A stretch of DNA of 62,192 nucleotides, counting the filler, from an uncultured Planctomycetales bacterium (lineage in GTDB: Bacteria; Omnitrophota; Gorgyraeia; Gygaellales; Profunditerraquicolaceae), in assembly GCA_964487475.1 (NCBI GenBank). It is 4 parts of 4 records of this genome, joined end to end, with 100 filler letters (N's around TTAATTAATTAA, not from the genome) between each part and the next. Parts side by side here need not be neighbours in the genome. Positions count along the whole stretch, not along the records: positions 1 to 13,800 come from CAZAPM010000011.1; 3 more parts are not named here. One strand, 5' to 3'. This document shows positions 1 through 3,000 of this stretch, piece by piece. A program made the position numbers. Numbering within the stretch: position 1 is the first letter of the stretch; every line of letters begins with the position of its first letter.

Positions 1-3000
1 CTGGGGTTCTTCCTGGTGAAAAGGAATATCCTGGGCAGTCCCTGCCTGGTGACGCTCAGCAACCTGACCCTGGACGTGTGTCTTCCGGCGCTGGTCTTCT
101 ACGAGCTTATCGGAAGGTTCGATCCCGGGCAGTTCCCGGGGTGGTGGATGATGCCTTTCTTAAGTTTTACCGTGACCCTCGCCGGATTGGCCGCGGGCGC
201 AGCAGTTTCGCTCCTGCTCAAAGCGCCGCAGGAAAGGTCGCAGTGCGCCGCGCTGACCGCGTTCCAGAACTCGGGGTATCTTCCCCTGGCGCTCATCGCC
301 TCCCTGGTGCCGCACCAGCAGGCGGAAGTGCTTTTCATCTATCTTTTCCTCTTCCTCGCGGGATTCAACTTCGCCATGTTCTCCCTGGGGGTCTTCCTTC
401 TGACCAGGGATAAGTCGGCGCAGGCGTCGTGGGGCAATGTCCTTAATCCTCCGGTGGTGGTGACCCTGGCAAGCGTCCTCCTGGTGCTTCTGGGTGCGCA
501 GCGTTTCGTGCCCGAGTTCGTATTGAAACCCGCCAAGATGGTCGGGGATTGCACCCTTCCCCTGGCCATGTTCGTAGTGGGAGGAAGCCTCGCGGAGATA
601 CCGCTCTTTAAGGTCCGCTGGAAGCCGGTGCTGCTGGCGACCGCCGCCAAAATGCTTATCGTGCCGGTACTGGGAGTGGCTGCGGTCAAGCTCCTGCGCG
701 TGCCGCATCCTTTGGGCCTGCTGATCGTGCTGCAGTGCGCCATGCCTTCCGCCATGTCCCTTTCCGCGATCCTTAAGAAATACGACCAGCCGGACCTGGC
801 GGTCAGCCACGGTATCTTCGTCTCCCACCTGGTCTCCGTGGTGACGCTGCCCCTATTTTTGGGTATATACTTCTCCTGGGCTATGGTACAATAAGCCTGC
901 CATGGGTATTTCAATCGCCACGAATAAGAAAGCGCTGCGGGATTTCCATATCCTGGAATCCGTCGAGTGCGGCATCGAACTGAAGGGCGGAGAGGTCAAG
1001 TCCCTGCGGGACAAAAAAGCCAGCCTGGATGAGAGCTACGCCCGCTTCGAGGGGACCGAGCTCTTCCTGTACGATGCCTATATCCAGCCGTATGCCCAGG
1101 CCAGCTACCTTAAGACCGAGCCGACCCGCACCCGCAAGATCCTGCTGCATAAGCACCAGATCGAAAAACTGCACCAGAAGGTCAGCCAGAAGGGCCTGAC
1201 CTTGGTTCCGCTGAAGCTGTATTTCAACGACCGGGGGTTCGCGAAGGTGGAGGTCGCCCTGGCCAAGGGCAAGAAGCAGCATGACCGCCGGGACGATATC
1301 AAGCGCCGGGAGACCGATCTGGCGCTGCGCCGCGCGGTCAAGAACCGCCGCTAACCCCTCCAAATTCCCTTTTCAAACCCCCTTTCCGATGGTATAATTA
1401 TATATACAAACAGGGGGTGAAAGGGCTCGACTTAAGGTATTCGGGTAAGAGCAGCATGCCGCGGACGCAGGGTTGGCCGCGTTATCAATCCTTGCACACA
1501 ATAAACGCGAAACCTACAATGGTTAACCGTTTGGCCCCAGCAATGGTGCCGGCGGGCGTTTCCTTCGGGTTTAATTAAACCCGGAACCCTTTCTTTCCAG
1601 CTCACGGGATAGAATAGGGTCACTCAGTGAGATAGCTGATACGGTCTAGCCTTTGGCAGTATCGGTGAAGCATTCAAAGGATGCGGCGTACATGATCCCG
1701 TTCACCGGAGCGTGTACGACAAAGGGTAAACGGTGAACTGAGCATGGAGCGGCTTTTATCGGGATCTTTAAGGACGGCGGTTCAATTCCGCCCACCTCCA
1801 CCATTTTCTCCCCTATGCCTGACCTCAAGACCGTATTCTATCCTGAAACCCGTTTCGGCGGGTTCACCGATGTCGACAGCACCGTCGTCTTTTTCACCCG
1901 CGTCAACGCGCTGGTGGGGAAGGATGCGGTGGTGCTGGACGTCGGTTGCGGCAGGGGGGCGGCGGCTCAGGATAAAGTGGAGCTGCGCAGGAACCTGCGC
2001 ACGTTCAAAGGCAGGTGCCGGCGGGTGATCGGGATCGACGTGGACGATGCGGGCAGCGCGAATCCCTTCCTGGACGAGTTCCGCCGGATCGAAGGGGGGC
2101 GCTGGCCTCTCGATGACGGTTCGATAGACGTGGCGGTGGTGGATAATGTCCTGGAGCACGTGCCGGACCCGGATATCTTTTTTTCGGAATGCCGCAGGGT
2201 GATCAAGCCGGGCGGGTATCTGTGTATCCGGACCCCGAACGTGTTCAGTTATTTCGGAGTGGCGGCAAAGCTTTTTCGCGGCCGGGCGCATGACAAGGTG
2301 CTTAAGGCAGCGCAGAAGGAGCGCTCCCACGAGGATGTCTTTCCTGCCGTATACCGGTGCAATTCACGGGGAAAACTGCGCAGTATGTTGGTCCGCAACG
2401 GGTTTGATGCCTGCGTGTACGGATATGAGGCCGAACCGAGCTATTTTTCCTTTTCTTCCCTGGCATATTTTCTGGGGGTGGTTCATCAGCGCTTCTCTCC
2501 GCGCGCCTGCCGGATCGTGCTTTTTGCGTTTGCCAGGCGCGGATCATAGCTTACCTATATTCCTTCCGGTTTTGTGATTTGCTTTCCGAAGTATTTATGG
2601 TACAATTGTCTGTACTTCTACAGGGTTATGCGAAAATATCTTAATGAATAATCATATAAAAATCTTAGTTGTTATTTTGCTTCTCGGGATATCCGGATGC
2701 GCCACGGTGCCTGTGCAGGATACTTTGCCGAAGTACACCTTGCACGGGGTGACGTATTATCCTCTGGCAGAGCTCTGCAGCAAAAAAGGAGTGATCTGGG
2801 AGTACGATACGTACAGCCGCACGATCACCCTGCGCAAGAACCAGCAGCGCTCTAGCGTGAGGGTGGGGGATTCCCTGGCGATCTTAAACGGCGCCTCGAA
2901 GAAACTCTCCCATCCGGTGGACGTCTACCGGGGGACGATCGTGGTGCCGCAGGCGTTCAAGGATAAGATCATCGATATGATGGCGTATGAGTCCGTCGTC

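What a model noticed while it worked through the whole genome (the two positions that open the first line are those of the whole stretch)
1413..1803. tmRNA degradation tag rewired (no AA end) where ClpX and Lon are both lost
The tmRNA encodes the tag AKPTMVNRLAPAMVPAGVSFGFN, without the C-terminal Ala-Ala read by ClpX. The genome has tig-clpP but neither clpX nor lon, and the whole order shares both losses and long Pro/Met-rich tags ending in N, H, P, R or W. Tagged proteins must be cleared by another protease (ClpCP, FtsH or a tail protease are present).
Evidence so far: Tag frame confirmed on the Rfam alignment. ClpX zinc finger 0 of 121 and Lon 0 of 121 order genomes (216, 217); phylum: ClpX 39 of 101 over cut-off, Lon 7 of 101 (165, 166). 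tmRNA in 30 of 31 order genomes (220); 29 of 30 tags read, 23-35 residues, none ends in AA: 17 N, 5 H, 3 P, 3 R, 1 W (221, 222). In ClpX-bearing Omnitrophota 7 of 7 readable tags end in AA (169, 221).
(Added by a program. Inside this text positions count along the whole contig: they may not be those of the stretch shown here. "Call 12" and the like, gene names such as g00115 and contig names such as C1 are that model's own, and its searches are not shown. The text may have been shortened before it was handed on; [...] marks where a part breaks off. The agent that wrote the report below was given it as the finding of a first reader that could run no searches.)

Follow-up and report, generated by a model that had tools for sequence, protein, structure and literature searches.

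The report
Rescue tag without ClpX or Lon
In a large group of uncultured bacteria whose genomes show neither of the two usual tag-reading proteases (ClpX and Lon), the ribosome-rescue RNA encodes a long, uncharged tag that lacks the standard Ala-Ala end, so a third protease, most likely a lineage-specific membrane FtsH, probably reads the body of the tag instead.

Summary
Confirmed: the tmRNA (1413-1803) encodes AKPTMVNRLAPAMVPAGVSFGFN. ClpX and Lon reach cut-off in 0 of 151 order genomes, and 0 of 52 order tags end in AA (one foreign-looking second copy set aside). Elsewhere in the phylum, 46 of 46 tags from ClpX-bearing genomes end in AA.

(1) Long Pro/Met-rich tags also occur in ClpX-bearing relatives, so ClpX loss did not create them. 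(2) The end looks released rather than rewired: pN/pS about 1 over the last five codons, 0.38 in the body. (3) tig-clpP without clpX is the normal gene order here; the real clpX gap lies before glmU.

New lead: tag length tracks Lon and a second, ectodomain-less FtsH. All 10 Lon-bearing genomes with a read tag have short AA tags. 17 of 18 tags of 12 aa or less come from genomes without this FtsH; 121 of 127 longer tags from genomes with it. Independent contrasts are too few (p 0.25), and ClpCP is a close rival. Earlier scan notes described that FtsH and an AA-less tag in another phylum, but not this link. New variant of the Mycoplasma switch; no degradation measured.

The parts
902..1354 (+). 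smpB, the tmRNA protein partner, directly upstream
   Evidence: ORF; NF003843 and TIGR00086 over cut-off
1370..1398 (+). sigma-70-like promoter match (TTTTCA-17-TATAAT, extended TG) 14 nt before the tmRNA
   Evidence: consensus match, 10 of 12; 2 sites found against a mean of 0.7 in shuffles; not shown to work
1413..1803 (+). one-piece tmRNA (ssrA), 391 nt, CCA encoded
   Evidence: ARAGORN; Rfam RF00023 148.6 bits, model 1-374; RNA-library contigs of three studies cover it with 0-11 differences per piece, none listed inside the tag codons (not proof of transcription)
1507..1578 (+). tag reading frame AKPTMVNRLAPAMVPAGVSFGFN*, 23 codons plus TAA, no terminal Ala-Ala
   Evidence: frame and resume context conserved in 52 order tmRNAs
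1534..1572 (+). uncharged Ala/Pro/Met/Val/Phe/Gly body of the tag (APAMVPAGVSFGF), the likely degradation signal
   Evidence: in the order, the 14 residues before the last are 63% hydrophobic, 18.5% Pro and 0.5% acidic, against 42%, 9% and 3.9% in shuffles; body pN/pS 0.38; the degron role is inferred
1564..1585 (+). helix H5: 9-bp stem with an AAUU loop made by the terminal Asn codon and the first base of the stop codon
   Evidence: predicted fold; same stem listed

Best explanation
This tmRNA encodes a 23-residue rescue tag whose Ala-Ala end likely decayed after ClpX was lost, while its long uncharged body is likely the working destruction signal and is most likely read by a second, Omnitrophota-type FtsH protease. 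Shown: the tag sequence; absence of ClpX and Lon in the sampled genomes; purifying selection on the body but none detectable on the last five codons; the same body, followed by AA, in ClpX-bearing Lon-less relatives; co-occurrence of long tags with the FtsH paralog (G000 C6:5516-7219) and of short AA tags with Lon. Inferred: the long-tag type was a two-part signal (body plus AA), so ClpX could be lost repeatedly and the AA then drifted under H5 RNA constraints; the body triggers proteolysis (about 0.8); and the paralogous FtsH rather than ClpCP is the main reader (about 0.5 given that).
For: AA in 46 of 46 ClpX-bearing tags, 0 of 52 order tags and 3 of 50 tags from 24 other families with neither ClpX nor Lon; ClpX changes state 7 times on a 61-genome tree, AA 6 times. 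clpX precedes glmU-prs in 5 of 5 class genomes examined; G000 has ispE-spoVG-tRNA-glmU-prs contiguous in mid-contig without it. The body has the same make-up in order tags and ClpX-bearing long tags; only 1 of 52 order tags has D/E in its last 12 residues. The FtsH paralog is found in 134 of 151 phylum genomes, and is missing from all 9 genomes with tags of 11 aa or less, among them all 7 Lon-bearing ones. In new class genomes, 8 of 9 read tags of 12 aa or less lack it and 10 of 11 longer ones have it. Among Lon-less genomes of the first set, 111 of 111 with the paralog have tags of 13 aa or more. The paralog keeps Walker A/B, pore-loop FVGVG, the arginine finger and HExGH, has two membrane helices joined by a short loop, and is monophyletic at 36% identity to the canonical FtsH. 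It lies 2-3.5 kb upstream of clpX on the same strand in 13 of 14 class genomes that have both. FtsH degrades ssrA-tagged proteins without cofactors (PMC10850787, passages).
Against: No degradation was measured. Phylogenetically independent contrasts are few: long tag against paralog 2.8 same, 0 opposite, of 3 pairs (p 0.25); ClpX against AA 3.4 same, 0 opposite, 2.6 unchanged, of 6 (p 0.25). Six genomes have tags of 13 aa or more without the paralog (G281, one contig; G319, four contigs; G152, G158, G161, G213), and whole families f33 and f60 lack it. G334 has the paralog and a 9-aa tag. By the gene-length proxy on 71 new genomes the link is weaker (short: 12 lack it, 5 have it; long: 14 lack it, 40 have it). 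The paralog is followed by an unannotated lipoprotein-like gene in 30 of 30 loci, which points to an envelope job. A second FtsH of Pseudomonas failed to degrade ssrA-tagged substrates. 21 of 22 ClpX-less f36 tags keep AA. The last-five pN/pS rests on about 12 changes, and H5 pairing lowers the synonymous rate.
Confidence: 0.42

Rival explanations
1. ClpC-ClpP reads the tag body, directly or after McsB phosphorylates the arginine near the start of the tag. Long tags arose where Lon was lost, and the FtsH paralog merely shares that distribution.
For: ClpP is kept in 30 of 30 genomes tested, and ClpC is the only ClpP partner left; ClpC is the only Hsp100 in G008 and in single-contig G281. McsB is in 149 of 151 genomes. 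ClpC motifs, including the ClpP-docking xGF loop and N-domain TER/TEH, are kept in 55 of 55 full-length sequences. The N-domain's best PDB matches are mycobacterial ClpC1, and M. tuberculosis ClpC1P1P2 degrades GFP-ssrA (PMC4416901, passages). 42 of 52 order tags have Arg in the first 12 residues. All 10 Lon-bearing genomes with a read tag have short tags. This reading also covers the paralog-less long-tag families.
Against: ClpC shows no column that cleanly separates ClpX-less from ClpX-bearing lineages. No ClpS or MecA adaptor in 5 of 5 genomes. 10 of 52 order tags have no Arg in the first 12 residues. It does not explain why three Lon-less genomes without the paralog (G166, G178, G340) have short tags while 111 of 111 Lon-less genomes with it have long ones.
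Confidence: 0.33
2. No dedicated reader: the body is a generic exposed hydrophobic tail that canonical FtsH, the paralog and ClpCP all engage with modest affinity.
For: The body is conserved in character rather than sequence (36 of 56 replacements are hydrophobic to hydrophobic), and several unrelated body types occur across the phylum. Canonical FtsH is universal. In E. coli several proteases share the tag (PMC10862746, passages).
Against: Does not predict the near-exclusive distribution of Lon and the paralog (9 of 10 Lon-bearing genomes lack the paralog).
Confidence: 0.14
3. The tag no longer directs proteolysis; tmRNA only frees ribosomes and the frame is shaped by RNA structure.
For: The last codons are tied to H5, and an ArfB-like factor is present in 4 of 5 genomes.
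Against: Body pN/pS 0.38 (p 2e-6, 11 hand-picked alignable pairs). Charged residues are 18 of 520 in positions -15 to -6, although 18% of one-step amino-acid changes there would be charged. The other frames of the same RNA lack this make-up.
Confidence: 0.07
4. The S41 tail-specific protease is the main reader.
For: One S41 protease in each of 5 of 5 genomes.
Against: All five carry an N-terminal hydrophobic, export-type segment, so they would meet only exported tagged proteins; such proteases favour non-polar ends (recalled), whereas these ends are mostly N, H or R.
Confidence: 0.04

Closest known systems
Mycoplasma/Mesoplasma ssrA tag read by Lon (Gur and Sauer 2008, seen only through review passages in PMC8138137)
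   Same: [quoted passage not shown]
Canonical ssrA tag read by ClpXP (E. coli AANDENYALAA; PMC10862746 passages)
   Same: One-piece tmRNA next to smpB, a standard resume context, and a stop codon in the H5 loop.
   Different: No terminal Ala-Ala; 23 residues (order 22-35) against a most frequent length of 10 (PMC11915505 passage); no ClpX.
FtsH degradation of ssrA-tagged proteins (PMC10850787 passages)
   Same: An ATP-dependent membrane protease that can read C-terminal non-polar tags without cofactors.
   Different: There FtsH is a secondary reader of an AA tag; here the candidate is a paralog without the outward-facing domain, tied to a lipoprotein gene, and untested.
M. tuberculosis ClpC1P1P2 acting on GFP-ssrA (PMC4416901 passages)
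   Same: A ClpC-type unfoldase that accepts an ssrA tag; the N-domain here best matches ClpC1.
   Different: That tag ends in AA and the organism keeps ClpX.
Carsonella ruddii tmRNA (PMC4131195 passages)
   Same: [quoted passage not shown]
   Different: Carsonella is a degenerate endosymbiont; here 14 of 52 order tags end in His or Arg and 31 in Asn, with a body under purifying selection.

Membership tests
Standard one-piece tmRNA (RF00023) | Full-length match to the covariance model with tRNA-like ends | tested here: met
   148.6 bits against a gathering score of 47, positions 1-374
Standard one-piece tmRNA (RF00023) | Open tag frame from resume codon to a stop in helix H5; SmpB encoded | tested here: met
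ClpXP-read ssrA degron | C-terminal Ala-Ala | tested here: not met
   ends GFN; 0 of 52 order tags end in AA
ClpXP-read ssrA degron | ClpX encoded in the genome | tested here: not met
   gap at the syntenic position
Mycoplasma-type tag switch to Lon | ClpX absent and tag lengthened | tested here: met
   but the length predates ClpX loss
Mycoplasma-type tag switch to Lon | Lon encoded and acting as reader | tested here: not met
   Lon 0 of 151 over cut-off; G000 match is RadA
FtsH-read C-terminal degron | An FtsH with intact ATPase and zinc-protease motifs is encoded | tested here: met
   two FtsH genes in G000; motifs intact in 30 paralogs; the paralog scores 499.6 bits, below the TIGR01241 cut-off of 600, and has no FtsH_ext domain
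FtsH-read C-terminal degron | Tag-dependent degradation by that FtsH | not testable with these tools
   needs biochemistry
ClpCP/McsB substrate | mcsA-mcsB-clpC and clpP present, ClpC with ClpP-docking loop | tested here: met
ClpCP/McsB substrate | Tag bound or phosphorylated and then degraded | not testable with these tools
   needs biochemistry

The most novel reading that the evidence does not exclude
Omnitrophota run ribosome-rescue proteolysis through a dedicated ectodomain-less FtsH paralog that substitutes for Lon and reads an internal, end-independent Pro/Met-rich tag. Having this route let ClpX be lost several times, so this would be a third natural tag-protease pair after ClpXP and Mycoplasma Lon, and a possible orthogonal degradation tool.
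Probability: 0.38. Interest if true: 0.82.

Novelty: new variant of a known kind. Interest (0 to 1): 0.64.

Why it matters
The two characterised primary readers of tmRNA tags are ClpXP and, in mycoplasmas, Lon. Here hundreds of genomes keep tmRNA but show neither, and the tag has lost the end that defines the textbook signal. The phylum also offers a repeated natural experiment, with several ClpX losses at different stages of AA decay, showing that the AA is held by ClpX alone while the body is held by something else. It names two concrete, cloneable candidates (the FtsH paralog and ClpCP) and so makes the question of what reads the tag without ClpX or Lon directly testable. It also offers a possible function for an FtsH paralog that has none assigned.

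Tried and rejected
tig-clpP gene order as evidence of clpX loss: rejected. None of 12 ClpX-bearing genomes examined has clpX beside clpP; Lon-bearing ones have tig-clpP-lon.

Long tag caused by ClpX loss: rejected (independent pairs 0.2 same, 1.1 opposite, 4.7 unchanged).

Terminal Asn as a new selected recognition residue: not supported. It is encoded in the H5 loop, often within a TT-AAT-TAA palindrome, and is replaced by H, R, P, V, L or W.

McsB as a covarying factor: uninformative, present in 149 of 151. A ClpC sequence signature of ClpX loss: none clear. ClpS, MecA, HslV/proteasome and RqcH: none over cut-off in 5 of 5 genomes. Native proteins with tag-like C-termini: none convincing among 1,411 crudely called ORFs; AA ends 13 against 13.1 expected.

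The scan of genome contigs with the lipoprotein found nothing, so the paralog's range outside the phylum was not tested; the 120 listed homologs are Omnitrophota where a taxon is named. tmRNA gene length as a stand-in for tag length misclassifies genes with an extra hairpin before the resume codon. Lack of RNA-contig cover over the flanking genes is no evidence. No structure or complex prediction was run, because an enzyme-degron model would not have moved the odds.

Full report
OBSERVATION. The window holds a standard one-piece tmRNA at 1413-1803 (ARAGORN; Rfam RF00023 148.6 bits over the whole model), 58 nt after smpB (902-1354). The tag frame 1507-1578 reads AKPTMVNRLAPAMVPAGVSFGFN*. The window is four contigs joined by N spacers, and the genome (1.87 Mb, 36 contigs, 94.64% complete) has one tmRNA. 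Contigs of RNA libraries from three studies cover the gene with 0-11 differences per piece, none listed inside the tag codons; this shows the sequence is real, not that it is transcribed.

PROTEASES OF THE GENOME. No ClpX reaches cut-off, and a relative's ClpX finds only ClpC and FtsH weakly. The one Lon_C match is RadA. Present are clpP after tig, mcsA-mcsB-clpC, clpB, two ftsH genes and one S41 protease with an N-terminal hydrophobic segment. ClpS, MecA, HslV/proteasome and RqcH were not found over cut-off in G000 or four other genomes, two of them single-contig. clpX instead precedes glmU-prs in 5 of 5 class genomes, and G000 has ispE-spoVG-tRNA(Gln)-glmU-prs contiguous in mid-contig with no clpX. 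That is good evidence of true loss.

THE ORDER. In 151 sampled genomes of 10 families, ClpX was found in 0 and Lon in 0 over cut-off, with two partial hits at contig edges; tmRNA was found in 132. I read 52 tags from 51 of those genomes: the 30 best-scoring, most members of the smaller families, and a few more. Resume codons were placed by alignment. The tags are 22-35 residues and end in N 31, H 8, R 6, P 4, V, L and W once each, never AA. Set aside before counting: a second copy in G150 that ends in AA and resembles no order tag, and a weak second hit in G009 that gave no tmRNA.

THE PHYLUM. In 151 genomes at least 85% complete, ClpX matched in 59 (53 over cut-off), Lon in 7 and tmRNA in 135. 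I read 121 tags outside the order; G209 (N gap) and a second copy in G278 were dropped, and four resume codons were corrected by hand. All 46 tags from ClpX-bearing genomes end in AA; three of these genomes have only split or partial ClpX. Of 73 tags from genomes with neither ClpX nor Lon, 25 end in AA: 21 from family f36, which also has ClpX-bearing members, and one each from f14, f40, f42 and f43. Two of the 25 (G204, G206) carry an unidentified longer ClpX-like protein below cut-off. In 24 families with neither protease, 47 of 50 tags lack AA, many ending in hydrophobic residues. On a McsA/McsB/ClpC tree of 61 genomes ClpX changes state 7 times and AA 6 times, and the order sits in a larger ClpX-less, AA-less clade. 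Independent pairs never go the wrong way but are too few for significance (3.4 same, 0 opposite, 2.6 unchanged, p 0.25).

WHAT IS SELECTED IN THE TAG. The long body is not a product of ClpX loss: 41 ClpX-bearing, Lon-less genomes have 19-27 aa tags. The 14 residues before the last are 61% hydrophobic, 18% Pro and 0.5% acidic there, against 63%, 18.5% and 0.5% in the order and 42%, 9% and 3.9% in shuffled order DNA. In 12 automatically chosen order pairs dN/dS is 0.36 (start), 0.56 (middle) and 0.93 (last five codons), against 0.30 for the last five in 8 ClpX-bearing pairs. In 11 hand-picked alignable pairs pN/pS is 0.38 for the body (p 2e-6) and 1.05 for the last five. The latter rests on about 12 changes, and stem pairing lowers synonymous change, so it is weak. 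The last codon lies in or at the loop of helix H5, often in a TT-AAT-TAA palindrome that extends the stem, which could explain the frequent Asn at the RNA level. My reading (inference): the end was released and the body is what is kept.

WHICH PROTEASE. FtsH copy number gave an unplanned lead. A second FtsH is found in 134 of 151 phylum genomes, not found in 14 and unclear in 3. It has two membrane helices joined by a short loop, no FtsH_ext domain and intact catalytic motifs, forms one clade, and is 36% identical to the canonical FtsH. It lies 2-3.5 kb upstream of clpX in 13 of 14 class genomes that have both. All 9 genomes with tags of 11 aa or less lack it, among them all 7 Lon-bearing ones; 111 of 116 with longer tags have it. 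I then tested new class genomes. Of 20 tags read, 8 of 9 of 12 aa or less lack the paralog and 10 of 11 longer ones have it; the gene-length proxy on 71 new genomes gives a weaker link (12 of 17 short lack it, 14 of 54 long lack it). A Lon check on five of these found Lon in the three with short AA tags and not in the two without AA. So all 10 Lon-bearing genomes have short AA tags, and 9 of the 10 lack the paralog. The 12/13-residue boundary was chosen after seeing the first set.

AGAINST THAT LEAD. There are only 3 independent pairs (p 0.25). Six long-tag genomes lack the paralog, including single-contig G281 and four-contig G319, and families f33 and f60 lack it throughout. G334 has it with a 9-aa tag. 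A lipoprotein-like gene without Pfam match follows it in 30 of 30 loci, which suggests an envelope role. ClpCP remains a close rival: ClpP is kept in 30 of 30 genomes, McsB in 149 of 151, ClpC motifs are intact (the role of the N-domain residues in phospho-arginine binding is recalled), its N-domain best matches mycobacterial ClpC1, and 42 of 52 order tags carry an early Arg. In lineages with neither Lon nor the paralog, ClpCP or the canonical FtsH must do the work if any is done.

MECHANISM. Shown: tag, gene absences in the samples, selection pattern, co-occurrence. Inferred: Lon-less Omnitrophota carry a two-part tag, with an uncharged body for one protease and AA for ClpX; ClpX became dispensable several times; AA then drifted, little in f36 and fully in this order. 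I put the FtsH paralog at 0.42, ClpCP at 0.33, a shared generic tail at 0.14, no proteolytic role at 0.07 and the tail protease at 0.04.

LITERATURE. Passages read: PMC8138137 (Mycoplasma switch to Lon; McsB/ClpCP); PMC4131195 (only Carsonella ended in a charged residue among 710 tags); PMC11915505 (97,179 sequences, most frequent tag length 10, no occurrence of ClpX, protease or Omnitroph in the main text, nor of Omnitroph in the one supplement held); PMC4416901; PMC10850787; PMC10862746; PMC7737663; PMC9601784. Abstract and outline only: PMC6274998. Gur and Sauer 2008 was not read directly. Searches for tmRNA+tag+Omnitrophota, Omnitrophota+ClpX, Omnitrophica+tmRNA, tmRNA+GTDB+tag peptide, and searches listed no paper on this by title or abstract start. 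The library lacks most subscription journals, and the tmRNA database file itself, which probably lists these tags, could not be seen. Earlier scan notes describe the FtsH-lipoprotein pair without a link to tmRNA, and an AA-less tag in another phylum.

VERDICT. Real, well supported as a comparative pattern, and a new variant of the known Mycoplasma-type switch: ClpX and Lon both absent, an end-independent tag, and an unidentified reader with two testable candidates. Interest 0.64.

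Noticed in passing
G000:C3:84242-85120; L306, L307, L310, L281: Trigger factor has its N- and C-domains nearly adjacent, with no room for the PPIase domain, in five ClpX-less genomes (G000, G281, G285, G152, G155); all 12 ClpX-bearing genomes and other ClpX-less ones have full-length proteins.
   Followed up: partly
G000:C15:1-50420: An open frame of at least 16,806 codons fills almost the whole contig.
   Followed up: no
window 1815-2549 and 9533-10576: Methyltransferase-like ORFs start directly after the tmRNA and after tRNA-Pro (function judged from the sequence only).
   Followed up: no
L195 (G122), L196 (G150), L194 (G278): Second tmRNA copies: G122 has two different order-type tags; G150 and G278 each have a foreign-looking AA-ending copy (island or contamination).
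   Followed up: partly
L152, L173, L188, L191, L389, L390: Several tmRNAs carry a 30-75 nt insertion before the resume codon (G198, G175, G242, G259, G355, G371).
   Followed up: no
G283:C3:213818-216826; G306:C114:3574-6609; P0002, P0003: FtsH paralogs of about 930-1030 aa with two matching units.
   Followed up: no
G213, G220, G238, G206, G181, G232, G257, G199, G204, G264: A 515-578 aa ClpX-like protein scoring about 290-310 bits, below the ClpX cut-off, in ten genomes of other classes; identity not established.
   Followed up: no
G008, G281: Only one Hsp100 (ClpC) and no ClpB in a two-contig and a single-contig genome.
   Followed up: no
L077, L067, L071, L108 and others: A second tag type with an acidic segment (VAEAEEILA-like) recurs in many ClpX-less families and was not seen in ClpX-bearing ones; possible adaptor- or ClpC-binding element.
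   Followed up: partly
G166 (L068): 98% complete yet no ClpX, Lon, McsB or FtsH paralog found, with a 9-aa AA-ending tag.
   Followed up: no
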